A DNA stretch of 64,000 nt from an uncultured bacterium (GTDB taxonomy: Bacteria > Patescibacteriota > Minisyncoccia > Phycocordibacterales > GWA1-40-21), in assembly GCA_903822075.1 (NCBI GenBank), contig CAIJNK010000004.1:12661-76660 (forward strand). Reading direction: 5' to 3'. The notes beneath the pieces were generated by a model. The model worked only from the letters and a program-made list of their open reading frames with translations. It ran no database searches and was not told where the DNA came from. Of this stretch, positions 38,397 through 53,850 are shown in pieces; position 1 is the stretch's first letter, and every line of letters begins with the position of its first letter. The translations under genes were made by a program, and so were the position numbers.

Positions 38397-39731
38397 CTAT
38401 ATATTTTCTTCTACTTTTATCTTATTTATATTGTCAGGGAAATAACGAGTCCAGACAGGACGGAATAAAACCTTGAGACCCAGAATGGAGTCCTTGTATT
38501 TAGCTGAGAGACTCTTCAGATCTGTCTCCTTTCGACCCAACAGGTCTCTTTTTAAGGCGGTAGAATCATACTGCCATTTTATATCTGCGTCACCGGTAAT
38601 CTTGATATCAAGTGCATCATTTTTCCACAAAACCGGACTCGTTCCTTTCAAGGTAGCAATTAAGTTGTCAGCCGGAATAAACGTGACTGGTAATCCATCA
38701 AAGTTGGCAATTTTTTGTGTGGCCAAGTATTTTGCTAATTTTGAATTATTGAAGACAACTCCATTTAGAATGCCTTCGATATTGATTTGGACCTTATTGG
38801 TTTCCACCGCCGTATCCGGTAAATCAGAGAAATCAAGAGAATAGCCATCCTTAAAAAGAAAATAGTTTTCTGGCTTAATGGCGTAGAGCTCTTTAAGTAA
38901 TTGATCTTTTAACTTACCCTTCAGGGCGTCTTCGGTTGATTTTCTTAGATCATCGGCCACGATTCTTTGTTTACCGATAAAACCCCCAACGATGTCTTCT
39001 TTTAATAAAGCATAAAAACCAACATAACGTAGGTCACCTTTAAAACCGGGAATTTTAAAATCACCTTTAAGATCTGAGACTTTGAGGTTATAATCTTCTC
39101 CCGCTTGGTCAGCAACTACAGTGGCTTCGACACTGCCTGGAATGATCTTACCACTTTCTTTATTTTGACCAGGAATAATTACCGATGTGCTTATCCGATA
39201 CACCTTGCCGTTGGCAGCCTCAAATCTGGTATTATTAATTAATCGCTGCGGAGAAGTACTGTAATTATTATATATAACGATCTTTCCGCTCGCTTTCTGA
39301 CTGACTTGTTTCTCGGCTGTTGCTTCAACTGTTTCTCCCAGATCTTCTTTCACTTTCAAAACCTCAAAAGTGAGGTCTGTAGCGGCCGCTGACTCTAACT
39401 TCGCGGAATAGGCATCATTGTTAAAAGTGATTTTTTCCGTCCGCGGGGTGACAATAACTGTGGCCGAGGAAAAGAGTATCGAAACTCCAAAAAATAGTGC
39501 GAGTAAACAGATGATAGCAATAAGCCAGATTACAAATTTGGGATTTAGAGGTTTTCGGTTACCACCGGCAATTTTATTGACTCGACGAGGCTTAAAGTTT
39601 CCCTTATTCTCCTCAAGGTCAACAATTTCTTTTTTCAAATCTTGGTAATCGGCTTTTTTATCTTTAGATAAGGGAATCTGCCGGATTGAACGCTTGGACG
39701 GAAGCATGTCGTTTATAATTTTTTTAGTCAT
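38397..39731 (-). CDS. hypothetical bitopic membrane protein (444 aa; cytoplasmic N-terminal 60 aa, one TM, large extracytoplasmic domain)
   Basis: TM FVIWLIAIICLLALFFGVSILFS; no motif recognised; located between the FtsA/PilM-like gene and infA. Confidence 0.4.
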   Translation of the reverse strand: MTKKIINDMLPSKRSIRQIPLSKDKKADYQDLKKEIVDLEENKGNFKPRRVNKIAGGNRKPLNPKFVIWLIAIICLLALFFGVSILFSSATVIVTPRTEKITFNNDAYSAKLESAAATDLTFEVLKVKEDLGETVEATAEKQVSQKASGKIVIYNNYSTSPQRLINNTRFEAANGKVYRISTSVIIPGQNKESGKIIPGSVEATVVADQAGEDYNLKVSDLKGDFKIPGFKGDLRYVGFYALLKEDIVGGFIGKQRIVADDLRKSTEDALKGKLKDQLLKELYAIKPENYFLFKDGYSLDFSDLPDTAVETNKVQINIEGILNGVVFNNSKLAKYLATQKIANFDGLPVTFIPADNLIATLKGTSPVLWKNDALDIKITGDADIKWQYDSTALKRDLLGRKETDLKSLSAKYKDSILGLKVLFRPVWTRYFPDNINKIKVEENI

Positions 39732-39737
39732 ATTTAT

Positions 39738-40928
39738 TTATATTTTATAAAGTTTATCCAAAAACATTAATCCTAATTTATAAACGGTATCGGCAATGTC
39801 AGATGACGACTTTATCTTTTTATTTTCAATAATCAACACTTTAAAATCCCGTTTTTCGAGCTTATCTTTTAAGAACGGAATCAAATCGCTATTGGCAATC
39901 AAAAAAATACATTCCGGCACATAGATTTTATCCTTAAGACTGTCTAGAACCTCAAAAATCTTGCTTAACCAGTTTCGAGCAGCACTGTCCATCGCCATGG
40001 CCAATCTCATGGCCGCTAATTGGTCATTACTTTTTGCGGTCTGCATGCTAATCATAGAATCGGCAATTTCTGGAGTGACTTTTAACTCCTTTGATAATTC
40101 GCGTATGAAATCGTTACGGCCCAAAGGGATGGAAGCGGCACTAATCATGACGTTATCCTTAATAATGGAAATATCGGTCATTTCCTCACTAATATCAATA
40201 TGGATAAAATCTTTTTTTTGCGGAAATAGATCCTGAATAATCGAGAAAGTTGATAAAGACAAAGAGTGACACCAAACGTTTTTAACATTGAAAGTTTTAG
40301 AAACGGCTGAATCGATAGTAAGGAGAATATCTTCGGGCACGACACTGAAGAAGACAGAAAGTTCTAAATCCTTTGCTTGCTTACCATAAAAATTATCCAC
40401 AGCATAACCATTTACTTTTACTTGAATTATCTTTTGTTCAATAATTTTTCCAACTTTGGATATACCCGCTTGAAATTGTTTTTCTTGCTCCTTTATCAAC
40501 TTACTCAAATAGCTTTCGGTAATTTTAATCGGTTTCTGATCTTTTATTCGGATCGTTTTAGTCTGAGAAACGCTCCAAGGGGAAGAAAAAACATAAAAAA
40601 CGCGATCGATTCTTATCTTTCGACCCGTACTAGCCTCAATTTTTTTTAACCCCTCAGCTTGAATCCTGGCGGCCAAGGTCGTCAAGGAAGATTTCAGCAA
40701 TTCCAGATGTTTTGGGACAGAAATTTCATCCTGAAAAGGAATTATTTCTTTGCTGTAATATGTAACATCCTCACCCTCTTTTTCTGAAAAATTGATTATT
40801 CCGCCCGCCACGCTTCCGCTGCTAATATTAAAAACCAAAGAATAGCTACCTTTATTTCTTTTTCCAAAAGAAAAGAACGACATGCTTACATTATAATACA
40901 CATCATTTGTAACCGCAAATTTTGGCAT
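39738..40928 (-). CDS. divergent actin-fold ATPase of the FtsA/PilM type
   Basis: SLVFNISSGSVAGGII (phosphate-1-like), DISEEMTDISIIKD, IPLGRNDFIREL resembling FtsA/PilM motifs; start moved to MPKFAVT because the upstream 22 codons run through a terminator hairpin. Confidence 0.35.
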   Translation of the reverse strand: MPKFAVTNDVYYNVSMSFFSFGKRNKGSYSLVFNISSGSVAGGIINFSEKEGEDVTYYSKEIIPFQDEISVPKHLELLKSSLTTLAARIQAEGLKKIEASTGRKIRIDRVFYVFSSPWSVSQTKTIRIKDQKPIKITESYLSKLIKEQEKQFQAGISKVGKIIEQKIIQVKVNGYAVDNFYGKQAKDLELSVFFSVVPEDILLTIDSAVSKTFNVKNVWCHSLSLSTFSIIQDLFPQKKDFIHIDISEEMTDISIIKDNVMISAASIPLGRNDFIRELSKELKVTPEIADSMISMQTAKSNDQLAAMRLAMAMDSAARNWLSKIFEVLDSLKDKIYVPECIFLIANSDLIPFLKDKLEKRDFKVLIIENKKIKSSSDIADTVYKLGLMFLDKLYKI

Positions 40929-40966
40929 GAAAAAACCCGGCACCGTCTTGTTAGACTGCGTGCCGG
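40929..40966 (-). terminator. rho-independent terminator/attenuator; its U-tract abuts the start codon of the FtsA/PilM-like gene
   Basis: ccggcacgcagtctaacaagacggtgccgg (10 bp stem), then guuuuuuc-AUG. Confidence 0.65.
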
Positions 40967-41159
40967 ATTTGTTAACGATTACGCCACCAACCATTATTCG
41001 GTGGGAGTGAACGGCAAGTTAAGTACGGTGGCTACCTTCCGCCCAAGTGTGTTTGCCTCACCTTTTGGCGTGCACCCGTTGAAGCCGTTTAGAAAGTTGG
41101 CAACGAATACCGAACCTCCGATAGTAATCTCTACCCGATAGTTATTTGGCGGATTAGGA
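40967..41159 (-). other. unassigned structured, GC-richer non-coding region between the alaS stop and the terminator (candidate sRNA, 3'UTR element or riboswitch-like leader)
   Basis: About 190 nt without a credible ORF; several internal complementarities (uccgcc/ggcgga; ctatcgg repeated); bounded by a strong terminator. Confidence 0.3.
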
Positions 41160-43070
41160 TCACCTCGATCTGCATAATACGCAAGTCAATACAGCCTTGA
41201 TACGTCTGACTCCAGCCGAAACCGCTTCTTCTTTGACAATTTTAAAGTGACCAAGCTCGGAAGTATTGGAAACATGTGGACCGCCGCAGAACTCGGCGCT
41301 GAAATCATCGATTTTGTAGACTTTGACGACATCGCCATACTTGGACAAATCAAAAGACAGGGTGGTGACGATTTTCTTGGCCTCCTCTTTCGGCAATTCC
41401 ATCATTTGCACTGGAATTTTTTCGGCGATTTTTTCATTAACCAGATCTTCCACTTTTTTAATCTGCTCCGGCATTAATTTCTCCGGCCAATTGAAATCAA
41501 ACCGCATTCTTTCCACGGTGATATTGCTTCCCTTCTGGACAATTTCCCCACCCAATACTTTTCGTAACGCACTCAACAGTAAGTGAGTGGCTGTATGATA
41601 TTTGGTCTCAATTTCTCCTGTTCCAGCCAACCCACCCTTGAATTTTTGTTCGGATCCAGCTTTGGAAATGGCTTGGTGTTTTATATATGCATTTTTGGCC
41701 TCTTTCATAGTTTGCTCATCAAATGCTAATCCCCATCCAGACATAATCTCTTGTGATATCTCAATCGGAACCCCATACGATTGATAGATATTAAAAATTA
41801 TTTCCCCATTCACCCGGATTACATTTCCAGTAATAACCGTACCTGGCGGTAAATTTTCTGGATCTATACCACCAATAGCTGAGTTAAATATCTTTTTTAA
41901 TGATTGTATACCATCTCGTAGTGTTCTTCTAAACTTTTCATCCTCATTTTTAATCACATCCAAAATCTCATTTTCTTTGACTAAAAGGATTGGATAAGCA
42001 TATGAAAGTTCAGCTATAGCCGCTTTGGCAATGTTTAAAATTTCTTCATTTTTTATGCCTAGCTGATCAATATATCTGATGGCCCGGCGTAAAACCCTAC
42101 GCAAAACATAACCGGCTTCCGTATTTGAAGGCGTAACACCATCAGAAATAATCATCACGGCTGAACGAATATGGTCAGCCACAATTCTCTCTGCTTTTTC
42201 ATCACGCTTAATTGCGAGTCTCTTGATTAAACCTAAAAGAGACTCAAAAATATCCGTCTCAAATACATTTTCCTTACCCTGCATTACCACCGTAGTGCGT
42301 TCCAAACCCATGCCTGTGTCTACGTTTGGTTTGGCTAGCATTTCATACTTACCATCGGCGGTCTTATTAAATTCCATGAACACGTTATTCCACACTTCAA
42401 TCAATCGGCCTGACTTCACCAAATCTGCAAATTTGCCTTCCAACTTTCCACCTTTTTCTTCACCTAGGACATCGTAAAACATTTCTGTATCTCCTCCACA
42501 CGGGCCAGTAGCGCCGGCAATCCAAAAATTGTCATCTTTGCCCAACGGCAGGATTCTAATTTCACCTTTAATGTATTCGTCGTCACCAGAAACTTCCGCC
42601 TCAATGCCATGCTTGGCAAAATTTTCTTTCCAAATCCTTATTGAATCATTATCTCGCGGAATTCCATCCTCACCCTTGAACACGGTCATGTAAAACCTAC
42701 TGGGATCCAAACCTAGCCCTTCTTCTTTACTTGTCAGGAATTCAAGACTCCAAGCTATAGACTCCTCTTTGAAATAATCTCCAAGTGACCAATTACCCAT
42801 CATTTCAAAAAATGTGCAGTGGCGATTGTCACCCACATCATCAATATCCCCGGTTCGAACGCATTTCTGCACATCTACCAATCTCGTACCAGCCGGATGC
42901 TTGGCACCAAGCAAATATGGCACCAATGGCTGCATGCCAGCCGTGGTAAAAAGAGTACCTTTGTCCGGAATATCATAATTGGCCGGCAACAAAGAAGCTG
43001 AAGGTATTACTTTATGCCCTCTTTTTTCAAAAAATTTCAAATACCGTTCGCGGATTTCTTGGCTTTTCAT
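41160..43070 (-). CDS. alaS: alanyl-tRNA synthetase, short form (catalytic, tRNA-recognition and editing domains; no C-Ala domain)
   Basis: FFEMMGNWSLGDYFK class II motif; editing-domain HTATHLL and CGGPHV; ends about 40 aa after GVRRIKAV; start at MKSQEIRERYLKFF. Confidence 0.85.
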   Translation of the reverse strand: MKSQEIRERYLKFFEKRGHKVIPSASLLPANYDIPDKGTLFTTAGMQPLVPYLLGAKHPAGTRLVDVQKCVRTGDIDDVGDNRHCTFFEMMGNWSLGDYFKEESIAWSLEFLTSKEEGLGLDPSRFYMTVFKGEDGIPRDNDSIRIWKENFAKHGIEAEVSGDDEYIKGEIRILPLGKDDNFWIAGATGPCGGDTEMFYDVLGEEKGGKLEGKFADLVKSGRLIEVWNNVFMEFNKTADGKYEMLAKPNVDTGMGLERTTVVMQGKENVFETDIFESLLGLIKRLAIKRDEKAERIVADHIRSAVMIISDGVTPSNTEAGYVLRRVLRRAIRYIDQLGIKNEEILNIAKAAIAELSYAYPILLVKENEILDVIKNEDEKFRRTLRDGIQSLKKIFNSAIGGIDPENLPPGTVITGNVIRVNGEIIFNIYQSYGVPIEISQEIMSGWGLAFDEQTMKEAKNAYIKHQAISKAGSEQKFKGGLAGTGEIETKYHTATHLLLSALRKVLGGEIVQKGSNITVERMRFDFNWPEKLMPEQIKKVEDLVNEKIAEKIPVQMMELPKEEAKKIVTTLSFDLSKYGDVVKVYKIDDFSAEFCGGPHVSNTSELGHFKIVKEEAVSAGVRRIKAVLTCVLCRSR

Positions 43071-43163
43071 AGGGTAAAATATAACACAAAGCCGGTTTTT
43101 CGCAAAGAAAAACCGGCGGGATTGCTCCACGCCGGTTAATTTACCTTCTTTTTCAACAAGATC

Positions 43164-43475
43164 TCATATCCCGCATTTTTTCCACTCAATTTCACGTGTG
43201 GGAAGTAGCCAGTGGCAATTCATCACAACCACGGGGTATTGACCTGTAAGTAATTTTGGCTGCTGAATTATCCCCGCTTCAATAAGTTCAAGCGCGAGCC
43301 GGGCGCATTTATTCCCGTATTCTCCCCAATACTTACCATGGCAGACGTCAATCAACATCAGCCAGGCCATAGGTGTTTTGCAGGCAGTCGCGGTATAAAT
43401 GATCTCCACGTCCGCCAGTCTCACATAGCCCTTGGCAAGATCCATAATACACGTTGAGAACCTGAGTCCGATCAT
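43164..43475 (-). CDS. hypothetical protein (103 aa)
   Basis: SD GGAGGT 4 nt upstream of the ATG; no motif recognised. Confidence 0.4.
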   Translation of the reverse strand: MIGLRFSTCIMDLAKGYVRLADVEIIYTATACKTPMAWLMLIDVCHGKYWGEYGNKCARLALELIEAGIIQQPKLLTGQYPVVVMNCHWLLPTREIEWKKCGI

Positions 43476-43548
43476 TCTTACCTCCGCATGTTGTTTATTG
43501 TTGAAATTTTCGAAAGAACATATTTTTGCATGTCTTACTAAAACAAAA

Positions 43549-43580
43549 CGAGCCCTCGTATTTGAGGACTCGTTTTTTTG
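43549..43580. terminator. bidirectional rho-independent terminator downstream of the two-nuclease operon
   Basis: cgagccctcg-tattt-gaggactcg then ttttttt; also terminator-like on the minus strand. Confidence 0.6.
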
Positions 43581-43733
43581 ATTAATTTTGTTTTAGTATT
43601 TTTAATCAGAAAAACCAACCCTCAAAACTGAAGGGCTAAAAAAGAAGAAATATGCGGTTTTCAGACTGATTAAGGCCATATAGATAGTATATATAAGTAA
43701 ATAATATGAGCAAGGCTACTCTGTGGATAACTG

Positions 43734-44549
43734 CTAACCAAATAAAGTATCTTTTTCGTCTGCTGATTTCTTAATCTTTTCCTGTTTCACCAAAGCTTGG
43801 AGACATTCCCCGGCGGCCTTACGATAATTGCAATAATCACAATCTGAATTCGGTATAGGTGCATTTGGTAAATCTAAACATTTTTTCATCTCAAAAATTG
43901 TCTTCTCAATCCAGTCAGTTTTACCGGTATAAGAGATGATAGTAATGTCGAAATCAAGCTTGCCGTCAAAAGCCTCTCGATCCGTCTTGCCATTTACATA
44001 AACAAAGTAACCGGTATTCGAGACTTTATAACCATTTTGCTTAAAAAGCCACTGATATATTTCCATCTGTCTTTTGTATTGAATTTTCCATTCATCATCA
44101 AGCGTGATTTCTTCCTCCTTACTGGTTGCTTTATAATCAACAACAATAAGTTCACCTTTGGAATTTATCCAAATATCATCAACCCCTCCGCGAAGTATAA
44201 TATTTGTCGGTTTATGCAAAAATGAAATACCGCGTTTTAAGGCATCACGCCATTCTTCCATTTTAGGATCGTCATAGGGCACAGCCTCGATACCGTATGT
44301 TTTCATTAGCGGATGTGCAGTATGCCGAGCCCGATGAATATCAAACTCTTTCTTCATCAAAAAGTCTACCGCGTTATTCAGGGTCAGCGGAAAAGAAGCC
44401 GGTCGGCCGACTCCGCATTTCTGATCCAAATAAAAACAACGCTCACAGTTCAAAAATAAATCCAACTTTGATCTGGATAAGCGGTGTGGGTCCTTGGAAT
44501 TAGAATCATACAAACCTCGCGTCCTTTTGGCTTTATAATATTGACTCAT
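43734..44549 (-). CDS. Cas4-family PD-(D/E)xK nuclease with 4-Cys Fe-S cluster (standalone; no CRISPR array in window)
   Basis: N-terminal Cys (LFLNCERCFYLD); motif II GGVDDIW, motif III ELIVVDYKATS, QxxxY (QYKRQMEIYQW); C-terminal CDYCNYRKAAGEC. Confidence 0.75.
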   Translation of the reverse strand: MSQYYKAKRTRGLYDSNSKDPHRLSRSKLDLFLNCERCFYLDQKCGVGRPASFPLTLNNAVDFLMKKEFDIHRARHTAHPLMKTYGIEAVPYDDPKMEEWRDALKRGISFLHKPTNIILRGGVDDIWINSKGELIVVDYKATSKEEEITLDDEWKIQYKRQMEIYQWLFKQNGYKVSNTGYFVYVNGKTDREAFDGKLDFDITIISYTGKTDWIEKTIFEMKKCLDLPNAPIPNSDCDYCNYRKAAGECLQALVKQEKIKKSADEKDTLFG

Positions 44550-45462
44550 TGTTTTCTGGCTTTATGTTAAGAGAGGTCTCGGCTTTTTTATTAATTTGGG
44601 CTAGTTCGTCAGGACCAACACATTCCTTGCATAAGTCGTAAACTTCCTTAATGACAGACTGGGCTTTCAAATCATCAAAACCATAACTTTTAAGTAGACC
44701 AAAATCCCCCAACTGCTTGGATAAGACAATGTCGTTAGCCAAAAACATTTTCTTCTCGCTCTGATTCAAAGTGGTCAACACCGTCAAAGGTACCAAGTTC
44801 AGTCCTTCAATCAAGTGATGCAGGTTCTTGTCATGCGGATAATTCCAGCCCACCATGTTCAGATGCACACATTCGCCATACTGAATGGCGGTGGAAGAAA
44901 AATTCGTATTGGTTATCAGCATGCCTCTGGTCAGCTTCCTCTCTTTTCCCCCGAATTTAAAAACGGTATTCTGCAAATCCTCAAACCGGGCCTTGATATA
45001 AAGTGCCACCTTCAGATCAGAGTGTGCGCCAAAATCCGTGTGAAATTTGGCTTCGGTCATGATGAGTTCCTTATCATTAAAAGCCACCACATCTATCTCA
45101 TGCGGAACGCAGGTGCCAAGCACAATCTGATCTGTGAACGTCTGATAGCCCTGTGCCTTGAATATCTCCGCCACAAATTTTTCAAAAGGAAAACCGGACG
45201 GTCCAAGCTCGGCAATCGCCCGTTTCAGGGAATAGCGCAAAGCCACTGGCCGCTGATGTTTACGAAGTAGGGTAAAAGCCTGTCGGTAAATTTCTTTGGT
45301 GGTATGTCCTTCTTCGGTCAAATCACTCTCGATTTTTTGAACAATCATGTCTGCTGTCTCCTTATCTGTGCCGATTTTCCGCAAAGAACGCAAAAGCTTC
45401 TCCCTATCAAAAAGTTCCCTTGTCCCGTCGGCTTTGATTATGTAGATTCCTTTTGGTGGCAT
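44533..45462 (-). CDS. ATP-cone domain fused to Mrr-like (PD-(D/E)xK) restriction-endonuclease domain plus uncharacterised C-terminal region
   Basis: ATP-cone: IYIIKADGTRELFDREKLLRSLRKIG…IVQKIESDL. Mrr_cat-like: FEKFVAEIFKAQGYQTF…EIDVVAF…EAKFH. The 17 nt overlap with the Cas4-like gene implies translational coupling; start at MPPKG. Confidence 0.6.
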   Translation of the reverse strand: MPPKGIYIIKADGTRELFDREKLLRSLRKIGTDKETADMIVQKIESDLTEEGHTTKEIYRQAFTLLRKHQRPVALRYSLKRAIAELGPSGFPFEKFVAEIFKAQGYQTFTDQIVLGTCVPHEIDVVAFNDKELIMTEAKFHTDFGAHSDLKVALYIKARFEDLQNTVFKFGGKERKLTRGMLITNTNFSSTAIQYGECVHLNMVGWNYPHDKNLHHLIEGLNLVPLTVLTTLNQSEKKMFLANDIVLSKQLGDFGLLKSYGFDDLKAQSVIKEVYDLCKECVGPDELAQINKKAETSLNIKPENNESIL

Positions 45463-45480
45463 TAGGAGATTATAACATAA
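45463..45480 (-). promoter_or_regulatory. extended -10 (TGTTATAAT) 6 nt upstream of the ATP-cone/Mrr gene ATG; putative leaderless promoter
   Basis: Minus strand reads ttATGTTATAATctccta-ATG, embedded in the 3' end of mnmA. Confidence 0.45.
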
Positions 45481-46627
45481 TCCCCCCGCCCAAGCATATA
45501 TCACCGTCATAAATGACCACTGATTGACCAGCAGCGGGTGATTTTTGCGCGTTTTTGAAGATTATTTGATATTTGTTACCATTCAGTAACATAATTCCGC
45601 AATCTGAGAGTTCACCGCGATAGCGAATCCGCGCGGAATATTCTTTCTTAAAATCTGGTGGAGTACCTAATGTCCAACTTACATCGCGGAGGATAAATTC
45701 TTTCAAATTTTGGTTTTCATTTTTTACTATATTTTCGGAAACAGTAATAGTGTTCTTTCTAATGCTTTTTGAGATCACAAACTTTTTATTATCATCCGGT
45801 GAACTCTGAGTAATATTGAAGCCATGACGCTGGCCAATAGTGTAGAGTTCGGCGCCGTCATGTCGGCCAATGATTTCACCTTGCTCGTTCAGGACGTTTC
45901 CGGGAACAGTCTTTATAAAGTGTTTCAAAAAATCCGCCATTTCCACCTTACCAATAAAGCACAAACCTTGGCTGTCTTTCTTTACGGCTGTATTCAAACC
46001 AAATTTCTTGGCCAATTTTCGCACCTCCGGTTTTTCCAGATCTCCCACCGGAAACAAAGTTTTTGACAGTTGCTTTTGCGTCAATGTCCACAAAAAATAA
46101 CTTTGGTCTTTATTTTTATCTCGGCCGGCAAGAAGGACGACAGGACTTTGGGAAAAATTTGTCGCGTAGGACCCACCTCGTCCTCGAGGAAGGGTAAAGC
46201 GCGAATTTTTTGCAAAGTCCTGTCGTTCTGATTTCACTTGGGCATAATGCCCGGTCGCCACGTAATCCGCGCCGTTTTTCATCGCCCAATCAAAATAACC
46301 GCCAAACTTCACATATTTATTACACATCACATCCGGATTTGGTGTCCGGCCTGCCATATATTCGGCAATCATGTAATCCACCACTTCTTTCTTATATTCT
46401 TCTTCCAGATCCAAGGTGTAAAACGGAATCTTTAATTTGGCGCAGACCCGCATCGCATCCAGCCTATCCTCCTTCATAGTGCAGCCGCCCCAGAAATCCG
46501 GTTGCCAGACTTTTATGAACACACCACGCACATCAAAACCGGCTTGTTTCAACAGTGCGGCTGACACAGAACTGTCCACGCCGCCGGACATACCCACAAA
46601 AACTTTTTTCTTTTGGCTTTTTTGCAT
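45470..46627 (-). CDS. mnmA: tRNA-specific 2-thiouridylase MnmA
   Basis: PP-loop SGGVDSS; MnmA body including …DQSYFL…; 385 aa. Confidence 0.85.
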   Translation of the reverse strand: MQKSQKKKVFVGMSGGVDSSVSAALLKQAGFDVRGVFIKVWQPDFWGGCTMKEDRLDAMRVCAKLKIPFYTLDLEEEYKKEVVDYMIAEYMAGRTPNPDVMCNKYVKFGGYFDWAMKNGADYVATGHYAQVKSERQDFAKNSRFTLPRGRGGSYATNFSQSPVVLLAGRDKNKDQSYFLWTLTQKQLSKTLFPVGDLEKPEVRKLAKKFGLNTAVKKDSQGLCFIGKVEMADFLKHFIKTVPGNVLNEQGEIIGRHDGAELYTIGQRHGFNITQSSPDDNKKFVISKSIRKNTITVSENIVKNENQNLKEFILRDVSWTLGTPPDFKKEYSARIRYRGELSDCGIMLLNGNKYQIIFKNAQKSPAAGQSVVIYDGDICLGGGIML

Positions 46628-46960: not shown

Positions 46961-47908
46961 TTATAGTAAGTATTTTTGTTTGTTGGCTACATGCTCATCG
47001 AATGTTTTAGCATAATGCATGACACCATCTTTATCGGTCAAAAAATACAGATAATCAGTCTTGATCGGACTTAAAACAGCGATGATAGAATCAAGTCCCG
47101 GATTACAAATGGGTGTTGGGGGCAAACCTTTGTATAGATATGTATTATACGGAGAATCTATTTTCAAATCTGCAGTAGTTAAAGTGGCAGTAGTTTTGCC
47201 GTTGATATACTTAAAGGATGAGTCCACCTGAAGCGGCATACTCAGTGCCAGCCTTTTCCACAATATGCCAGCCACTATTTGCCTGGTTTCCGTCGTTCGT
47301 CCTTCTTCTTCAACAATAGAGGCCATTTTGATAATGTCTGATTCAGTCTTGCCGGAGGCTTTTATCTTATCTTCGACTGTCGCAATTTTTCTATTATAAT
47401 TTGCCTGCATTGCCTCAATGACCGTGTATACACCAGTATTAGTCTGGAAAATATAGGTGTCCGGAAAAAGATAACCTTCCAGACTTTTGGCCTTGGCGAT
47501 GAAATCCGCCGGCGTGACTTTGGCTAACTTGGCGGAAATTATTGGCGCCATTTCCGATACGCTCAAGCCTTCGGGTACAGTAATCTTTACTTGGGCCAGA
47601 CGATAATCCCCGCTTGTTAATCTATGAGCTAAGCTGTAGGAATTTTCCGCTTTCTCTAGAACGTAGTCACCGGCGATTATTCCTTTTGTGCCGCCAAGTA
47701 GGACAGCATAAACTTTGAATAAAAAAGGTGAGCGAATGATTTTTTCTGCCTGCATTTTTTTTGCCAAAGAGTTTAAACCAGTGCCATTTTCTACTGTATA
47801 GACAGTTCCAACCGGAAAACCTACTGGAGACCTTTGCTCAAACACAACAAAAACCGAAATAATTAAAATAATGATAATAGCTAAATATGCAGTCAGTTTC
47901 CAGTTCAT
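46961..47908 (-). CDS. mltG: endolytic murein transglycosylase MltG/YceG
   Basis: N-terminal TM; YceG-like blocks (…YLFPDTYIF…, LTDKDGVMHYAKTFDEH). Confidence 0.7.
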   Translation of the reverse strand: MNWKLTAYLAIIIILIISVFVVFEQRSPVGFPVGTVYTVENGTGLNSLAKKMQAEKIIRSPFLFKVYAVLLGGTKGIIAGDYVLEKAENSYSLAHRLTSGDYRLAQVKITVPEGLSVSEMAPIISAKLAKVTPADFIAKAKSLEGYLFPDTYIFQTNTGVYTVIEAMQANYNRKIATVEDKIKASGKTESDIIKMASIVEEEGRTTETRQIVAGILWKRLALSMPLQVDSSFKYINGKTTATLTTADLKIDSPYNTYLYKGLPPTPICNPGLDSIIAVLSPIKTDYLYFLTDKDGVMHYAKTFDEHVANKQKYLL

Positions 47909-47910
47909 GA

Positions 47911-49227
47911 CTAATTCTTAATTGGTAAATTGGCCGGCGGTTCAGATTTTTTGGAGGCAATCTTAGGGAGGGTCGGCGTAGCCGAGACATTGCCTGGGAA
48001 GTGATAGATGGTGGCCAGCTCCTCGGTATTAAGTATGAAAGGATTTTGACGATAATACTGGTATGGAGGGAAAAAGAAAGAGCGCAACCGATAGGCATCA
48101 AACATCTCGTTGGTTAATTTGGCTTTCCTCAAAGTAATCACTTTTTTCAAAAAGGGAAAAAGAGTAGACCAATCCTTAAGGTTATCACTGACGTCAGTCC
48201 ACTTTGATAATCTCAACCCATTTAGCGTAAGAGAGTTATACTGACGCATGGCACCGATGTAACCTGAGATATAGGAAGAATTGAAAACTTCCTTATTTGA
48301 CAGGTAAAATCCTCGGATCATGGTATCAAAAGCCATCTTACTAATCCCCCTTTCTATGGCGGCGATGGTTTCCGTCTGACCCTTGGTCATGTTAGGAAAA
48401 CCAGGGAAATCACCCTTTGTTTCTGGTGTGGCTTTTTTCTTAATGTCAGCAATTTCTTCCAGAGCTTCTTTTTCCCAATTACCCCTCTCTCGGAGTCGGT
48501 GATTTTTTAGATCCTCTTTATTGTGCATCTTAATCAGAATTTGCATCCAGATTTGTTGTCCCTTACCTGCCGAACCTAAAAATTCCAAGACGGCGGTCAT
48601 GGGGTCAATCCGGTATTCGTCTTTCTGGTCCTTATCCATATTGTAATCCACATACGTCTTAATTGGATAGATATCCTTTTTTAAGAGCTTAAATTGTAAG
48701 CCCCAGATAATATGTTTCGCTGGATCAAAGTTAAATTGTCGAACGTAGTCTTTCTCTGGCGGCACCTCATACACTTCCACCGTGGGATATTGAGCATAAA
48801 TTTGAGCTTCCAGTATTTTTTTGAATTTGGTTTCCGACGACCAGATATAAAAATGAATCTGCCCCTCAATCGAAGCTAACTCCAAGGAAAACCAACCTTT
48901 CACCTTTCCATCCAAATATGCTTCGGTATAAGTAGCCGCCCCGCTTGCTTGCATGGCTGCAAAAATGATCTCCATGGCCAAGGGCGACTTTTGGATATCT
49001 TTTGGGATTCTTATCTCAAAGAGGAAGGGTTTAAGTTTGGAAATATACTTCAGCTGAACATAGCGAACCCAGAGGATCACTGCCATATAGATCAAAATTA
49101 CCGGTACCAGAATGGGCGACAAGACAAAAAGAATCTTGTAGATAAGCGGCAGGATCTCCGTATTGAATTTGGTAAGAAGCTCCAGAAACATGTCTGCCAT
49201 TATAACACATGACAAAATTAAAAACAC
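47911..49227 (-). CDS. hypothetical membrane protein (438 aa)
   Basis: Two N-terminal TM helices plus a large soluble domain; no motif recognised. Confidence 0.4.
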   Translation of the reverse strand: MFLILSCVIMADMFLELLTKFNTEILPLIYKILFVLSPILVPVILIYMAVILWVRYVQLKYISKLKPFLFEIRIPKDIQKSPLAMEIIFAAMQASGAATYTEAYLDGKVKGWFSLELASIEGQIHFYIWSSETKFKKILEAQIYAQYPTVEVYEVPPEKDYVRQFNFDPAKHIIWGLQFKLLKKDIYPIKTYVDYNMDKDQKDEYRIDPMTAVLEFLGSAGKGQQIWMQILIKMHNKEDLKNHRLRERGNWEKEALEEIADIKKKATPETKGDFPGFPNMTKGQTETIAAIERGISKMAFDTMIRGFYLSNKEVFNSSYISGYIGAMRQYNSLTLNGLRLSKWTDVSDNLKDWSTLFPFLKKVITLRKAKLTNEMFDAYRLRSFFFPPYQYYRQNPFILNTEELATIYHFPGNVSATPTLPKIASKKSEPPANLPIKN

Positions 49228-49258: not shown

Positions 49259-50293
49259 TTATTTTACAATCTCGTACTTCCCTTCCTTACTCTTTTTAAA
49301 GAATTTTGGATTCTGCAAGTTGATGACAATGGTGTTTTCCTTTACATAACGTTCTTTTAAGACTTTCTGAATCACCTCCTGCTTGGTCATTGGACCGTAT
49401 TTCTCAATGAGCTTCTTGATGACATCTTTGACCACACCGCTCATATAACCCCATTCGGACAAAGCATACAAACCGCGTCCCACCAGAACAAAACGAGGAT
49501 CTTTTATCAGTTCATTGTGAGTGGTTGCCACGTGTGCCTTAATTTTGAAAACTTCCGTAATGATTTTAGCCACCTCGCGGAAATGGATGGGCGAACCATG
49601 TCTTCTAATGACCAAATAAGCATAATCTCTCATACCTTTGGTACTAATATTTGAAGACTCGGTCTTACCCCATTCACCCAAAGTATTCTTACCAATCTTC
49701 TTTGACAAGGCTAACCACCTTTTTGCTATTTCCTCATTCTTGTATTTTTCAGAGACATCTTCTAGATGACCGAGGAAGGATTTGATAATATCCGGTTCGG
49801 ACATGAGATCCTCGCTCTTTAAAGTAGCGTAAAGCTTCCGCAACGCCTCATGAACTTTTTCCGATAAGGAACTGTCAATAAACCAGCGGTGTTTAAAATC
49901 CTCGTCTTCCTTGATTTTATTAAAAGGATGACCAACAACCAAAATAAAATTTATATGGCTTTGAATGGAGGCGTCAGTAGATATATAATCCAAAAGGTCC
50001 TGCTCAACGACAATACCGCCAAGAGAATGAATAATTTTTTCAACTTCGTCAAAAGTAGGTTTTTCCTCAAAATATTGCTTGGATTTCCGAATAACGGCCA
50101 AAGCGTGGTTTTCAATCTGCCTGACACGCTCACGAGTTATGCCGTATGTCTTGCCAATAGCATCCAAGGTCATTGGCTCTGAGTCCTTACCCAAACCATA
50201 GCGCTTGGTCATGACATCGCGAGACCGTTGGGAAAGGGCACCGATCAGTCTTTTGCTAACTTGCTTTGGTTTAAAATTTATTGTTATTGACAT
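49259..50293 (-). CDS. putative transcription factor: sigma-70 region-4-like HTH (N-terminal) plus HARE-HTH-like domain (C-terminal)
   Basis: MTLDAIGKTYGITRERVRQIENHALAVIRK resembles sigma region 4.2; C-terminal …DPRFVLVGRGLYALSEWGY resembles the HARE-HTH of the RNAP delta subunit and ASXL proteins. Confidence 0.45.
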   Translation of the reverse strand: MSITINFKPKQVSKRLIGALSQRSRDVMTKRYGLGKDSEPMTLDAIGKTYGITRERVRQIENHALAVIRKSKQYFEEKPTFDEVEKIIHSLGGIVVEQDLLDYISTDASIQSHINFILVVGHPFNKIKEDEDFKHRWFIDSSLSEKVHEALRKLYATLKSEDLMSEPDIIKSFLGHLEDVSEKYKNEEIAKRWLALSKKIGKNTLGEWGKTESSNISTKGMRDYAYLVIRRHGSPIHFREVAKIITEVFKIKAHVATTHNELIKDPRFVLVGRGLYALSEWGYMSGVVKDVIKKLIEKYGPMTKQEVIQKVLKERYVKENTIVINLQNPKFFKKSKEGKYEIVK

Positions 50294-53300: not shown

Positions 53301-53850
53301 CTGAAGTGTTGAGCGTGTAGATGGGATTACCTTGGTCAAAGGCAAAGGCGTCGGCGTAAACATAATTGGTGGTACTGCCGGTTCGAATCAAGGCATATTC
53401 ATCGTCGGTACCGGCAAAGTAATAATTGCCGAGCAGATTCCACTGCCGGCCGTTTGCGCTTTCGTCCACCATGACGGTGGTTGTGGTGGCGTTGTGGACA
53501 ATATCCACTGGCGTATTGGTGGCGGCCTGGCTGGCAGCGGGATAATTTATGTAGACATTGTAATTGCCGGCGGTAGTAATGTGAGAATTGAATTTGACAG
53601 TGGAGGTACCTTTGTTGGTATTCTTATCATGAAGATAGTTGGCGCCGTAATAGCCTAAACTGTAAGTACTTGTTGCCCAGTTGCCAATAATGTCTCCAGC
53701 CGGTATATCGGAATTATCCACCATAATGGGGGTGCTGGTGACGGTGTCAGCGTGGACATGGGAGATGGTTTGAGAGTGAAAAGAAGAAAGGAAGAAAAAG
53801 ATAAAAGAAAAAGAAAGAAAAGTGAAGGAGAGAAATTTGAATAATTTCAT
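50389..53850 (-). CDS. large secreted/surface protein (1153 aa): signal peptide, Ig-like repeats, putative glycoside-hydrolase-like TIM-barrel region, Gly/Thr/Ser-rich linker, C-terminal peptidoglycan-binding (PG_binding_1-like) domain
   Basis: N-terminal MKLFKFLSFTFLSFSFIFFFLSS; FWTWADEPDL / ISWYNYDS blocks; GGGGGSSGGG-TPPPV linker; C-terminal …DIKQLQIFLN…ATRLALIRFQ…. Confidence 0.5.
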   Translation of the reverse strand: MKLFKFLSFTFLSFSFIFFFLSSFHSQTISHVHADTVTSTPIMVDNSDIPAGDIIGNWATSTYSLGYYGANYLHDKNTNKGTSTVKFNSHITTAGNYNVYINYPAASQAATNTPVDIVHNATTTTVMVDESANGRQWNLLGNYYFAGTDDEYALIRTGSTTNYVYADAFAFDQGNPIYTLNTSAANGTIDNSSASTTYAFGDTVTLTATPASGYIFSSWSGDVATTKNPLALTMSSNKNIIANFIPDGSKPLLYEDFEVGDLPNLSYTGQSGTGVISVSTVVAHSGLYSAITQVSPASSNKAWFYQNEYFGPHAYAQIYFYLGNDFVLGNASSPKIVFLNLEDGSYNSVKKIYLNKINADSFCLATGGACASVATPLIRGHWYPLDIEYQTGTGTGAFTAKINGNTEISMINATIGNISRFVMGMDKTGSEVGNGGTIYFDDTAFSASPIVDQSSFINIRHANSFAHSSLYIDLALTGYSTGDTIVASLDGLLYITISNLVGREKFAVDMVPLSVGDHSLVVKLLDSQNTEKYSATTTLTKYVSGTPFVSIDKDNNLLSNGVKIFPVGLFYPPDTNKLSGMLAANLINVASWNPLWSANYSVNEFTSYLQTVSGLGVKTFGPDSRYPNYLTTNAPNTIAQYTSTFRNNQSLLFWTWADEPDLKTSFYTPALMDLYTAISHVNDPNHPNILNLYGYVPDVTKTKGYLSLEPVADILSFDVYPVWASNGDTQMTMSQYTSIMDEFQKNNFGLTPFTSFVEACDMSSTQPHLTPELLKMEIWLNVIHGMKGISWYNYDSINNNWIDIPTDNAAVISQFVTDMQTLAPAVLGSNSTHAVTDDANADGNRVDTMIKETDSDIWIFATRLSEIGEMSGTSTSVNFNVSDLADKTVNVYGESNRTINMTGGAFSDSFMPGEVHIYQISKTEIPPTPQTCTSFTYSAWSPAVCPVSGTQGHTVVTSSPDGCTGGSPVLSQTCTYVPTGGGGGGSSGGGTPPPVIPKPLATTTATSTLATSTFTATVTSAPPFLFTHILNPYTTDSDIKQLQIFLNTHNFIIATTGTSSPNHETTYFNDATRLALIRFQTAHYNEILKPAGVTKGTGVFGLGTIKYVNDILKQETVATQPSVSVCQFIDLLISIDVIPANKVVAAKGALGCR

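What the first reader, a model, noticed from the sequence alone, without database searches (positions are those of the whole stretch)
43734..45480. Operon of two PD-(D/E)xK nucleases: ATP-cone plus Mrr-like endonuclease translationally coupled to a standalone Cas4-family Fe-S nuclease
The promoter-like element at 45463-45480 leads directly into the ATP-cone/Mrr-like gene, which overlaps the Cas4-like gene by 17 nt. A bidirectional terminator follows at 43549-43580. The ATP-cone is the ATP/dATP-sensing allosteric module of NrdR and ribonucleotide reductases. Fused to a restriction-endonuclease catalytic domain, it suggests nuclease activity gated by the nucleotide pool.

The partner has every Cas4/RecB-nuclease hallmark, including the 4-Cys cluster, but no CRISPR array or other cas gene is present in the window. 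This looks like a compact candidate defense or DNA-processing module. The small SD-led hypothetical at 43164-43475 just downstream may or may not belong to it.
Basis: partly seen in the sequence, partly recalled or inferred. Interest (0 to 1): 0.65.

Follow-up and report, generated by a model that had tools for sequence, protein, structure and literature searches.

The report
ATP-sensing nuclease plus Cas4-like exonuclease operon
A tiny-genome (Patescibacteria) bacterium carries a two-gene operon for a nuclease fused to an ATP/dATP-sensing "ATP-cone" and a Cas4-like exonuclease; it sits in a conserved housekeeping block, so it looks like nucleotide-pool-controlled DNA/RNA processing, not a phage-defence system.

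Summary
Two overlapping minus-strand genes encode an ATP-cone + Mrr_cat nuclease (44533-45462) and a PDDEXK_1/Cas4-like nuclease (43734-44549). An extended -10 box lies 6 nt before the first ATG, and a strong terminator follows.

The defence reading is not supported.
- In 63 Patescibacteria genomes the first gene sits in a collinear core block, mltG-mnmA-[ATP-cone nuclease]-[Cas4-like]-[ogt]-[udg]-...-alaS.
- Both proteins diverge no faster than the flanking tRNA genes.
- Neither was found in phage genomes. The ATP-cone nuclease is absent from 2.9 million viral contigs and occurs on 2 of 72,556 plasmids. PADLOC places neither gene in a defence system; its only significant hits are generic Cas4 profiles on the second gene.
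- The pair is facultative. Cas4-like follows the ATP-cone gene in 23 of 54 loci. Only about 10 of 80 Cas4-like loci have the ATP-cone gene within their flanks.

The nuclease plus its C-terminal domain belongs to the uncharacterised AF1548 family (PDB 1Y88). Outside Patescibacteria, in four phyla, the same protein is repeatedly linked to a beta-CASP hydrolase, an archaeal-type nucleoside/AMP-phosphorylase homologue and a PRPP-synthetase homologue.

Best reading: a housekeeping, adenine-nucleotide-gated nuclease co-transcribed here with a RecB-family exonuclease, serving nucleic-acid turnover/salvage or repair. The biochemistry is untested. I rate it a new variant of a known kind, of moderate interest.

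The parts
45469..45477 (-). Extended -10 promoter element TGTTATAAT. It overlaps the mnmA stop codon and lies 6 nt upstream of the ATG at 45462, with no Shine-Dalgarno sequence, so a leaderless or near-leaderless transcript is inferred.
   Evidence: Sequence read. A TATAAT-like hexamer lies 5-10 nt before the ATG in 43 of 61 orthologous Patescibacteria loci (peak at 6-7 nt), against a 6.3% background, 3 of 49 for mnmA and 3 of 31 for mltG. The transcription start site itself is not shown.
44533..45462 (-). Gene for a 309-aa ATP-cone + AF1548-family (Mrr_cat) PD-(D/E)xK nuclease.
   Evidence: Pfam. Alignment A1 (66 sequences from Patescibacteria, Legionellales and Bacteroidota) has invariant E94, D124, E137 and K139. 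AF2 model: pLDDT 90.6, pTM 0.82. PDB 1Y88 matches at E 1.8e-43 and by Foldseek at 3.3e-14, TM 0.77 on the target.
45220..45447 (-). ATP-cone sensor domain (residues 6-81).
   Evidence: PF03477 above the gathering score. The fold matches NrdR and RNR ATP-cones at prob 1.00, rmsd 2-3 A over about 82-86 residues. K10, G13, F18, I58 and Y59 are invariant. Ligand binding was not tested.
44848..45195 (-). PD-(D/E)xK catalytic core (residues about 90-205), with motifs FE94KF, HE-x-D124 and E137-x-K139.
   Evidence: PF04471 above the gathering score. They correspond to the D38/E51/K53 predicted for AF1548 in PMC1821046.
44623..44835 (-). Helical C-terminal domain (residues about 210-280), equivalent to AF1548-like_C (PF22357).
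   Evidence: Covered by the 1Y88 profile match, positions 94-277. PF22357 passes its threshold in the Bacteroidota homologue P0303 but not in the window protein itself.
44533..44549 (-). 17-nt overlap between the stop of gene 1 and the start of gene 2, which implies translational coupling.
   Evidence: The conserved ...NE(S/P)IL tail of gene 1 in close relatives is explained by this overlap with the conserved MSQYY start of gene 2.
43734..44549 (-). Gene for a 271-aa RecB-family (PDDEXK_1, Cas4-like) nuclease. It has the conserved cysteines CxxC...C...CxxC and a Lys/Glu-rich tail ending in TLFG.
   Evidence: Pfam, PADLOC and NCBIfam. Alignment A2 has invariant D124, D125, D138, Y139, K140, Q161 and Y165, and C35, C38, C237 and C240. 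AF2 model: pLDDT 88.1. Foldseek hits are the AdnA nuclease domain, RecE, MGME1, Cas4 SSO0001, lambda exonuclease, EXO5 and AddB.
43545..43576 (-). Intrinsic terminator closing the operon.
   Evidence: 13-bp stem, T-run. (dG -21.1 kcal/mol, z -7.2, 0 of 200 shuffles fold as well).
43615..43639 (-). Second, weaker terminator-like hairpin upstream of the main one.
   Evidence: 9-bp stem, 3 GC pairs, T-run.

Best explanation
This is a chromosomal, vertically inherited housekeeping operon of a Patescibacteria (Paceibacteria-type) genome. It is not a defence system.

Transcription starts at an extended -10 box placed 6 nt before the ATG, so the mRNA is probably leaderless (inferred).

Gene 1 encodes a catalytically intact PD-(D/E)xK endonuclease of the AF1548 family, with an N-terminal ATP-cone. 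By analogy with ribonucleotide reductase and NrdR, ATP/dATP binding to the cone is expected to switch the enzyme's oligomeric or active state. Nucleic-acid cleavage would then be tied to the adenine-nucleotide pool (inferred, untested).

Gene 2 is translationally coupled to gene 1. It encodes a RecB-family, Cas4-like exonuclease with a Cys4 metal site, expected to resect the ends produced, 5'->3' (inferred from its relatives).

My preferred purpose is controlled turnover or recycling of nucleic acid into nucleotides. This would suit an organism that must salvage nucleotides. DNA repair is the close second. The two genes are separable: each occurs widely without the other.
For: Shown.
- Domains and intact catalytic motifs.
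- Confident models and fold matches: AF1548 plus NrdR/RNR ATP-cones for gene 1, and the RecB/AdnA/Cas4/EXO5 clade for gene 2.
- A collinear block mltG-mnmA-ATPcone-[Cas4-like]-[ogt]-[udg]-..-alaS in 63 Patescibacteria loci: mnmA 52/58, alaS 45/54, Cas4-like 23/54, UDG 36/54.
- A promoter-like -10 box at the ATP-cone gene (43/61) and at alaS (27/47), but rarely at mnmA, mltG or Cas4-like. This marks the ATP-cone gene as the start of a transcription unit that includes Cas4-like.
- Tight spacing between the two genes in 17 of 17 loci.
- Divergence no faster than mnmA, alaS or mltG: Cas4-like is more conserved than alaS in 17 of 19 loci and than mltG in 19 of 19.
- No ATP-cone nuclease in 2.9 M viral contigs or 50,697 phage genomes, and only 2 of 72,556 plasmids.
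- No PADLOC defence-system assignment; the only significant PADLOC hits are generic Cas4 profiles on gene 2.

Supporting the turnover/salvage preference.
- In 11 of 23 non-Patescibacteria loci the orthologue is next to a beta-CASP hydrolase, an archaeal-type 'putative thymidine phosphorylase' and a PRPP-synthetase subfamily protein. The phosphorylase matches TIGR02645 at 590 bits and is AMP-phosphorylase-like; the synthetase matches NF005537.
- These loci come from Legionella and another gammaproteobacterium, Bacteroidota, Balneolaceae and Chlamydiota. Gene order varies among them, and PPK2, phosphoketolase or acetate kinase sometimes lie nearby.
- CPR bacteria are reported to run an AMP-phosphorylase/RuBisCO nucleoside pathway (PMC5113843, abstract only).
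Against: - No biochemical datum exists for any member of either family. The literature searches found none.
- The ATP-cone lacks the Arg that follows the conserved Lys in RNR/NrdR cones (it reads K-A/S-D/S-G; that comparison is from my own knowledge), so ligand specificity could differ.
- In Patescibacteria the cassette partners (beta-CASP, phosphorylase, PRS) are not nearby. The neighbours there are instead repair-type genes, UDG and Ogt.
- That interval also holds unrelated genes (M3 peptidase, SOD, MgtC), so synteny within one class is weak functional evidence either way.
- The substrate (DNA or RNA) is unknown.
- Half of the non-Patescibacteria loci lack the cassette.
Confidence: 0.5

Rival explanations
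1. A dedicated DNA-repair operon. The ATP-cone nuclease would be a lesion- or structure-specific endonuclease, licensed only when dNTP/ATP levels allow resynthesis. The Cas4-like enzyme would resect the ends, working alongside the uracil-DNA glycosylase and Ogt-type methyltransferase encoded just downstream in related genomes.
For: - A family-4-type UDG (PF03167, E 2.7e-32) lies downstream in 36 of 54 Patescibacteria loci, and directly adjacent where Cas4-like is missing.
- A mini-Ogt (PF01035, E 8e-28) lies downstream in 11 of 54. At least one of Cas4-like, UDG or Ogt is present in 45 of 54.
- Ogt and Cas4-like rarely have their own -10 box (1/13 and 5/26), so they are probably co-transcribed with the ATP-cone gene.
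- The fold relatives of gene 2 are repair/recombination exonucleases: AdnA, AddB, EXO5, MGME1.
- Hudaiberdiev et al. 2017 suggest 'defense or repair' for solo-Cas4 in CPR.
Against: - The window itself and its closest relatives (L001-L005) lack UDG and Ogt here.
- The same interval carries unrelated housekeeping genes, and UDG has its own -10 box in 19 of 38 loci.
- Outside Patescibacteria the partners are metabolic (phosphorylase, PRPP synthetase), not repair genes.
Confidence: 0.27
2. An anti-phage or anti-plasmid defence module. A restriction-like nuclease would be activated by infection-induced changes in ATP/dATP, with a Cas4-like nuclease degrading the invader's DNA.
For: - The Mrr_cat and Cas4-like folds are common in defence systems.
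- The sensor + PD-(D/E)xK architecture parallels the CARF nucleases Can2/Card1 and Cdn1, which appear among the fold hits.
- The ATP-cone protein gives only weak PADLOC hits (PDC-S02 E 5e-4, REase_II, mREase_IV). The Cas4-like protein matches generic Cas4 profiles at E 8e-9.
Against: - A core-genome collinear context with tRNA-modification, cell-wall and aminoacyl-tRNA synthetase genes.
- Purifying selection equal to or stronger than that on housekeeping neighbours.
- Absence from viral contigs and phage genomes, and near-absence from plasmids.
- No methyltransferase, specificity subunit, CRISPR array or other defence gene nearby.
- The cassette partners give no PADLOC match.
Confidence: 0.08
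3. The adjacency is incidental. Two unrelated housekeeping nucleases merely share a transcription unit in a streamlined genome and do not act on the same substrate.
For: - Each gene is widespread without the other. About 70 of 80 Cas4-like loci lack the ATP-cone gene nearby.
- 31 of 54 ATP-cone loci lack Cas4-like, and none of the 23 non-Patescibacteria ATP-cone loci has it annotated or detected nearby (tblastn for L062-L080; gene and Pfam tables for L161, L180-L182, L186 and L187; counts).
- Operons of unrelated genes are common in such compact genomes (general knowledge).
Against: Where both are present they are always immediately adjacent, in the same order, with -23 to +22 nt spacing (17 of 17 loci). 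Cas4-like then lacks its own promoter-like box.
Confidence: 0.15

Closest known systems
AF1548 of Archaeoglobus fulgidus (PDB 1Y88; Pfam Mrr_cat + AF1548-like_C PF22357)
   Same: The nuclease core plus the helical C-terminal domain. The profile match is E 1.8e-43 over positions 94-277, Foldseek gives E 3.3e-14, 33% identity and TM 0.77 on the target, and the D/E-x-K triad is the same.
   Different: The crystallised 199-residue chain has no ATP-cone. It is a structural-genomics protein with no known function, only predicted to be a restriction-type endonuclease (PMC1821046).
Mrr / type IV restriction endonucleases (PF04471)
   Same: The catalytic fold and motifs. Pfam Mrr_cat is above the gathering score.
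   Different: There is no Mrr_N winged-helix DNA-binding domain, and an ATP-cone takes its place. The gene lies in a conserved core-genome context with no mobile-element association.
ATP-cone of ribonucleotide reductases and NrdR (PF03477)
   Same: The sensor fold (Foldseek prob 1.00, rmsd about 2-3 A over 80-86 residues) and conserved Lys/Gly/Phe/Tyr positions.
   Different: The output domain is a nuclease, not a reductase or a zinc-ribbon repressor. The Arg after the conserved Lys is replaced by Ala, Ser or Thr. Ligand binding is untested.
CARF-nuclease effectors Can2/Card1 and Cdn1 (ligand sensor + PD-(D/E)xK nuclease)
   Same: The logic of the architecture: a small-nucleotide sensor fused to a restriction-like nuclease. 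They appear among the fold hits at E about 1e-3.
   Different: The sensor fold differs (CARF against ATP-cone), as does the ligand (cyclic oligoadenylate against ATP/dATP). Their context is CRISPR type III, not a housekeeping block.
Cas4 (SSO0001, PDB 4IC1; TIGR00372 / PF01930) and 'solo-Cas4' of CPR bacteria (Hudaiberdiev et al. 2017, PMC5704561)
   Same: The RecB-type motifs (D...D-x-K, QxxxY), N- and C-terminal cysteines, and the fold (Foldseek E 1.4e-4). Solo Cas4-like genes were already reported as over-represented in CPR genomes lacking CRISPR.
   Different: It scores below the Cas4 profile cut-offs, and its best family is PDDEXK_1. The Cys pattern is CxxC...C...CxxC, not C...CxxCx5C. 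There are no cas1/cas2 genes and no array.
Nuclease domains of AdnA/AddB, RecE, EXO5 and MGME1
   Same: These are the best structural neighbours of gene 2 (AdnA E 5e-6, TMq 0.47). They are end-resecting or flap-processing exonucleases, some carrying Fe-S clusters.
   Different: Gene 2 is a stand-alone 271-aa protein without a helicase partner. TM-scores are modest (0.3-0.47).

Membership tests
ATP-cone domain (PF03477) | The profile match is above Pfam's gathering score. | tested here: met
   34.3 bits against a cut-off of 25.8, residues 6-81.
ATP-cone domain (PF03477) | A four-helix-plus-beta-hairpin fold superposable on RNR/NrdR cones. | tested here: met
   AF2 model with pLDDT 90.6. Foldseek hits to NrdR 9FXK/9GEX and RNR 3HNE/5OLK at prob 1.00, rmsd 2-3 A.
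ATP-cone domain (PF03477) | It binds ATP/dATP and changes activity or oligomeric state. | not testable with these tools
   This needs ITC, filter binding and activity assays. The Lys is conserved, but the following Arg is not.
AF1548 family (Mrr_cat + AF1548-like_C) | Sequence and fold similarity over both the nuclease and the C-terminal domain. | tested here: met
   hmmsearch E 1.8e-43 over positions 94-277. Foldseek E 3.3e-14, TM 0.77 on the target. PF22357 is detected in the homologue P0303.
PD-(D/E)xK nucleases, active members | The catalytic acidic residues and Lys are conserved. | tested here: met
   E94, D124, E137 and K139 are invariant in 66 sequences. D124/D125, D138, K140, Q161 and Y165 are invariant in 46 sequences of gene 2.
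Mrr-type (type IV) restriction enzyme | An N-terminal Mrr_N winged-helix DNA-recognition domain, and a role in restricting modified DNA. | tested here: not met
   No Mrr_N hit; the N-terminus is an ATP-cone. The context is housekeeping. The PADLOC mREase_IV hit is only E 0.025.
Cas4 (TIGR00372 / PF01930) | The profile score is above the curated cut-off. | tested here: not met
   TIGR00372 scores 33.7 bits against 65. PF01930 scores 20.6 bits against 22.7.
Cas4 (TIGR00372 / PF01930) | Four cysteines arranged as one N-terminal Cys plus C-x2-C-x5-C at the C-terminus, binding an Fe-S cluster. | tested here: not met
   The conserved cysteines are C35-x2-C38 ... C224 ... C237-x2-C240. No conserved third Cys follows the C-terminal CxxC, and C249 is unique to the window. 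Whether the metal is Fe-S or Zn cannot be tested here.
Cas4 (TIGR00372 / PF01930) | Genomic association with cas1/cas2 and a CRISPR array. | tested here: not met
   There are no arrays in the window. The neighbours are mnmA, alaS and mltG. No cas gene was seen among recurrent neighbours in 80 + 80 loci.
PDDEXK_1 (PF12705) RecB-family nuclease | The profile score is above the cut-off and the fold is RecB-like. | tested here: met
   48.5 bits against 22. Foldseek hits to AdnA, RecE, MGME1, Cas4, lambda exonuclease, EXO5 and AddB.
Anti-phage defence system (PADLOC/defence-island criterion) | A match to a known or candidate defence model, or recurrent location in variable defence islands or mobile elements. 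| tested here: not met
   Apart from generic Cas4 profile matches to gene 2 (best E 8e-9), PADLOC gives only weak hits (best E 5e-4) and no system assignment. The genes sit in a conserved syntenic core block. There are 0 phage and 0 viral-contig hits for gene 1, and 2 of 72,556 plasmids.

The most novel reading that the evidence does not exclude
The ATP-cone/AF1548 nuclease would be the first nuclease controlled by an ATP-cone. It would act as a cross-phylum switch that releases nucleic-acid degradation when the adenylate or deoxyadenylate pool changes.

In Legionellales, Bacteroidota, Balneolaceae and Chlamydiota it would feed a dedicated cassette: a beta-CASP nuclease, then an archaeal-type NMP/nucleoside phosphorylase, then a PRPP-synthetase-like enzyme. 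This cassette often lies beside phosphoketolase, acetate kinase or PPK2. It would recycle or burn nucleic-acid ribose.

In nucleotide-auxotrophic Patescibacteria the nuclease would be teamed with a Cas4-like exonuclease to turn DNA into salvageable nucleotides.
Probability: 0.3. Interest if true: 0.75.

Novelty: new variant of a known kind. Interest (0 to 1): 0.5.

Why it matters
In the papers I retrieved, and to my knowledge, ATP-cones are described as allosteric switches of ribonucleotide reductases and of the repressor NrdR. A conserved nuclease with thousands of members that carries this sensor would extend the module to nucleic-acid degradation. It would give a direct biochemical handle (nuclease assays with and without ATP/dATP) on how cells couple DNA/RNA turnover or repair to nucleotide supply.

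For Patescibacteria, which are thought to depend on salvaged nucleotides, it offers a testable role for the long-noted but unexplained 'solo Cas4-like' genes.

The cross-phylum four-gene cassette found here is present in culturable bacteria (Legionella, Pontibacter, Roseivirga, Criblamydia). The hypothesis can therefore be tested genetically without culturing a CPR organism.

It also corrects a tempting mis-annotation: a restriction/Cas4 pair read as defence.

Tried and rejected
- PADLOC and PHROGs scans of all three proteins found no defence system and no phage family of known function. The only hits were generic exonuclease/Cas4 profiles.
- Viral-contig and phage-genome searches gave nothing for gene 1. 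Gene 2 gave 16 IMG/VR contigs, which I did not examine further and which may be mis-binned CPR DNA.
- An N-terminal-only profile (A4), built to obtain a residue-level alignment with NrdR/RNR cones, was swamped by spurious annexin-repeat matches to the 'KL..SL.k.G.De' helix. The only RNR hit was 8P23 at E 0.008.
- I first read the conserved ...NE(S/P)IL C-terminus of gene 1 as a possible docking motif. I rejected this because it is the alternative-frame reading of the conserved MSQYY start of gene 2.
- Literature searches for ATP-cone + (restriction) endonuclease, for AF1548 and for the beta-CASP/phosphorylase/PRS cassette found no functional study.
- A look-up of the window's mnmA product, meant to annotate a wider flank, found no record.
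- The small ORF at 43164-43475 was considered as a third component and rejected. It is not syntenic and lies beyond two terminators.
Full report
**1. What is in the sequence**

On the minus strand, mnmA (45470-46627) ends at a TAA. That stop codon is embedded in a perfect extended -10 box, TGTTATAAT (45477-45469). Six bases later an ATG (45462) opens a 309-codon gene ending at 44533.

A 271-codon gene starts at ATG 44549, inside the last 17 nt of the first gene, and ends at 43734. It is followed by two hairpins with T-runs, at 43615-43639 and 43545-43576. The second has a 13-bp stem, dG -21.1 kcal/mol and z = -7.2.

Next come a 103-codon ORF with its own GGAGG Shine-Dalgarno (SD) ribosome-binding sequence (43164-43475) and alaS (from ATG 43070). 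Pfam confirms mnmA, YceG/mltG (46961-47908) and alaS as the neighbours. The window has no tandem or CRISPR-like arrays.

**2. Domain calls**

Gene 1 carries ATP-cone (34.3 bits, cut-off 25.8) and Mrr_cat (26.4 bits, cut-off 21).

Gene 2 carries PDDEXK_1 (48.5 bits, cut-off 22). It falls below the Cas4-specific cut-offs: PF01930 20.6 bits against 22.7, and TIGR00372 33.7 bits against 65. PADLOC gives generic Cas4 profile hits for gene 2 and only weak hits for gene 1.

Public gene calls truncate both genes, to 286 and 259 aa. Alignments of homologues support the longer forms, because the N-termini are conserved. The truncation explains why the database record of the identical protein lacks an ATP-cone annotation (P0001).

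**3. Gene 1 in detail**

I aligned 66 homologues from Patescibacteria, Legionellales and Bacteroidota, 38-85% identical to the window protein. The alignment has invariant K10 and G13 in the ATP-cone. In the nuclease core E94, C118, H121, E122, D124, E137, K139 and H141 are invariant. The enzyme is therefore expected to be active.

A profile of this alignment matches PDB 1Y88 (AF1548 of Archaeoglobus fulgidus) at E 1.8e-43. The match covers both the nuclease and the helical C-terminal domain. The AlphaFold model (pLDDT 90.6) finds 1Y88 first, then NrdR and RNR ATP-cones for the N-terminus.

At lower rank it finds sensor-plus-nuclease proteins such as Can2/Card1 and Cdn1.

AF1548 is a structural-genomics protein. 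Its only published comment is a prediction of a restriction-endonuclease fold with catalytic D38/E51/K53 (PMC1821046). I found no paper on an ATP-cone fused to a nuclease.

**4. Gene 2 in detail**

The alignment of 46 homologues has invariant RecB-type motifs: GG-x-DD, V-D-Y-K and Q-x-E-x-Y.

The invariant cysteines are C35, C38, C237 and C240, with C224 present in 90%. The window's C249 occurs in none of 120 homologues. This CxxC...C...CxxC pattern differs from the canonical Cas4 pattern, C...CxxCx5C.

The model (pLDDT 88.1) is closest to the nuclease domains of AdnA, RecE, MGME1, Cas4 SSO0001, lambda exonuclease, EXO5 and AddB.

Hudaiberdiev et al. (PMC5704561) already noted that solo Cas4-like genes are over-represented in CPR genomes without CRISPR. 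They proposed 'uncharacterized defense or repair functions', and they found that the pfam12705 members contain no major CRISPR-associated branches.

**5. Genomic context in relatives**

A scan of one genome per species returned 80 loci with 10-kb flanks. 63 are Patescibacteria. In these the gene order is strongly conserved and entirely collinear:

mltG - mnmA - ATP-cone nuclease - [Cas4-like] - [mini-Ogt] - [UDG] - ... - alaS

| Gene | Loci with the gene / loci with enough flank |
|---|---|
| mnmA upstream | 52 / 58 |
| alaS downstream | 45 / 54 |
| Cas4-like | 23 / 54 |
| Family-4-like UDG | 36 / 54 |
| Ogt-like | 11 / 54 |

The same interval also carries an M3 peptidase, a SOD-like gene and MgtC in subsets of loci. 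It is thus a mixed housekeeping region.

In the reverse test, 80 metagenomic loci were found with the Cas4-like profile. Only about 10 have the ATP-cone gene within their flanks, and the gene has no other dominant neighbour. The pair is therefore a lineage-restricted, facultative adjacency of two independently widespread genes.

Where both are present they are always adjacent and tightly spaced: -23 to +22 nt in 17 of 17 loci.

**6. Transcription units**

I counted starts with a TATAAT-like hexamer (at most one mismatch) ending 4-12 nt before the ATG.

| Gene start | With the -10-like box |
|---|---|
| ATP-cone gene | 43 / 61 (sharp peak at 6-7 nt) |
| alaS | 27 / 47 |
| UDG | 19 / 38 |
| Cas4-like | 5 / 26 |
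| mltG | 3 / 31 |
| mnmA | 3 / 49 |
| Ogt | 1 / 13 |
| All ATG triplets (background) | 6.3% |

SD-like motifs are rare at these starts.

It also implies leaderless or near-leaderless transcription units that begin at the ATP-cone gene and at alaS, with Cas4-like inside the first unit. The transcription start itself is inferred, not shown.

**7. Is it defence?**

The evidence says no.

- The location is a conserved core block, not a variable island.
- Identity to the window proteins is on a par with the flanking housekeeping genes or higher. For Cas4-like the medians are 57-58%, against mnmA 55%, alaS 49% and mltG 48%. For the ATP-cone nuclease the medians are 51-53%, against mnmA 56%, alaS 50% and mltG 47%. 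The ATP-cone nuclease exceeds mnmA in only 11 of 50 paired loci, alaS in 27 of 44 and mltG in 32 of 36.
- Gene 1 has no relative in 2.9 M viral contigs or 50,697 phage genomes, and occurs on 2 of 72,556 plasmids. Gene 2 has no phage-genome hit and 16 IMG/VR contigs.
- No PADLOC model fits gene 1 or its cassette partners.

**8. Context outside Patescibacteria**

Orthologues 39-45% identical occur in several other groups:

- Legionella/Fluoribacter, Aquicella and other Gammaproteobacteria
- Bacteroidota (Pontibacter, Roseivirga, Algoriphagus and others)
- Balneolaceae
- Pseudobdellovibrionaceae
- Criblamydia

In 11 of 23 such loci the gene is immediately next to some or all of three partner genes:

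- a beta-CASP MBL hydrolase, aCPSF1/Cas14-like;
- an archaeal-type 'putative thymidine phosphorylase', which matches TIGR02645 above its cut-off and also scores 467-476 bits on the AMP-phosphorylase model;
- a PRPP-synthetase subfamily protein (NF005537).

The gene order varies between lineages:

| Lineage | Order |
|---|---|
| Legionella | bCASP - TP - PRS - cone |
| Bacteroidia (L066), Roseivirga, Pontibacter actiniarum plasmid, Criblamydia plasmid | cone - bCASP - TP - PRS |
| Pontibacter sp. (L080) | cone - TP - PRS |
| A gammaproteobacterium (L182) | bCASP - TP - x - cone |
| Balneolaceae (L063) | cone - bCASP |

PPK2, phosphoketolase, acetate kinase, glycogen phosphorylase and a universal stress protein (Usp) lie nearby in some loci. 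A partnership that keeps recurring across phyla while the genes change order is a stronger signal of functional linkage than vertical synteny within one class. It ties the ATP-cone nuclease to nucleic-acid and nucleotide catabolism or salvage. I found no literature on this cassette.

**9. Interpretation**

Shown:
- the gene structures, the domains and the intact catalytic motifs;
- family membership in AF1548 and PDDEXK_1;
- the conserved housekeeping context and the operon-like coupling;
- the lack of mobile-element or defence association;
- the cross-phylum cassette.

Inferred:
- that the ATP-cone binds ATP/dATP and gates the nuclease, by analogy with RNR and NrdR;
- that gene 2 is a 5'->3' exonuclease with a Cys-bound metal;
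- that the transcript is leaderless.

I commit to a housekeeping, adenine-nucleotide-gated nuclease co-expressed with a RecB-family exonuclease (confidence 0.5). My preferred purpose is nucleotide-pool-coupled nucleic-acid turnover or salvage. This fits the cassette, and it fits the reported reliance of CPR bacteria on nucleoside pathways (PMC5113843).

A DNA-repair operon is the main rival (0.27), supported by the UDG and Ogt neighbours in Patescibacteria. Incidental adjacency (0.15) and defence (0.08) follow.

**10. Novelty**

Both protein families are already in the databases, under generic names, and solo Cas4-like genes in CPR have been described before.

New here:
- recognition that the ATP-cone + AF1548 nuclease is a large, conserved, cross-phylum family;
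- its operon with a Cas4-like exonuclease in Paceibacteria;
- its recurrent cassette with beta-CASP, phosphorylase and PRPP-synthetase genes elsewhere;
- the leaderless-promoter signature.

I rate it a new variant of a known kind (a ligand-sensor-gated PD-(D/E)xK nuclease), interest 0.5.

Noticed in passing
L065, L071, L073, L074, L066, L080, L063, L180, L182, L186 (Pontibacter actiniarum plasmid NZ_CP021236.1), L187 (Criblamydia plasmid NZ_LK031773.1): A four-gene cassette recurs across four phyla with variable gene order. It comprises the ATP-cone nuclease, a beta-CASP MBL hydrolase, an archaeal-type thymidine/AMP-phosphorylase homologue (TIGR02645) and a PRPP-synthetase subfamily protein (NF005537). 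PPK2, phosphoketolase, acetate kinase, glgP or Usp sometimes lie nearby. I found no literature on it.
   Followed up: partly
window 45469-45477 and 43078-43083; loci L001-L079: Paceibacteria-type genomes show a -10 box (TATAAT-like) 6-7 nt upstream of the ATG at the heads of transcription units: the ATP-cone gene 43/61, alaS 27/47, UDG 19/38. There are almost no Shine-Dalgarno motifs, which suggests widespread leaderless mRNAs in this lineage.
   Followed up: partly
window 43164-43475 (-): A 103-aa ORF with a strong GGAGG SD lies after two terminators. It belongs to a real but unnamed protein family: 283 representatives at E<=1e-3, mostly about 100 aa, with invariant G3, C9, P81 and W89. It has no Pfam, PDB or PHROG match. 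It is absent from this position in all related loci, and in L001 only 30 nt separate the Cas4-like stop from alaS. It therefore looks like a small insertion.
   Followed up: partly
window 43734-43790 (C-terminus of the Cas4-like protein); P0121-P0240: 58 of 120 homologues end in a variable Lys/Glu-rich linker followed by x-L-F (TLF in 36) within the last 8 residues. This is reminiscent of a beta-clamp-binding motif. That reading rests on my own knowledge and is untested.
   Followed up: partly
L178/L183/L184/L185 (contigs identical to the window region): Public gene calls truncate both genes, to 286 aa and 259 aa. This removes the start of the ATP-cone, so the stored record shows only Mrr_cat, and it hides the 17-nt overlap.
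   Followed up: yes
loci L007-L061 downstream of the ATP-cone gene: A family-4-like uracil-DNA glycosylase lies downstream in 36 of 54 Patescibacteria loci, and an 84-aa mini-Ogt/MGMT domain protein with the PCHR active-site motif in 11 of 54. Both are absent from the window and its closest relatives L001-L005.
   Followed up: partly
window 41160-43070 (-): AlaRS is short, about 636 aa. The catalytic and editing/SAD domains are detected, and the protein ends right after tRNA_SAD, so it apparently lacks the usual C-terminal extension.
   Followed up: no
window 47911-49227, 39738-40994, 38397-39731 (-); 49259-50293 (-); 50389-53850 (-): Three ORFs of 418-444 aa have no Pfam match at E<=1e-5. A 344-aa protein combines Sigma70_r4 with a HARE-HTH domain. 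A 1153-aa protein carries Golvesin_C and an InlB B-repeat-like domain and is probably a surface protein.
   Followed up: no
ATP-cone residues about 18-45 (window 45328-45411): The helix-loop 'eKL.rSLrkiGtDe..id.Iv' gives spurious profile hits to annexin repeats (E down to 3e-7 when summed over repeats). This is a caution for profile searches with isolated ATP-cones.
   Followed up: yes
L162-L177 (IMG/VR contigs): Sixteen 'viral' contigs encode the Cas4-like protein at 40-59% identity. I did not check whether these are real phages of CPR bacteria or mis-classified CPR contigs.
   Followed up: no
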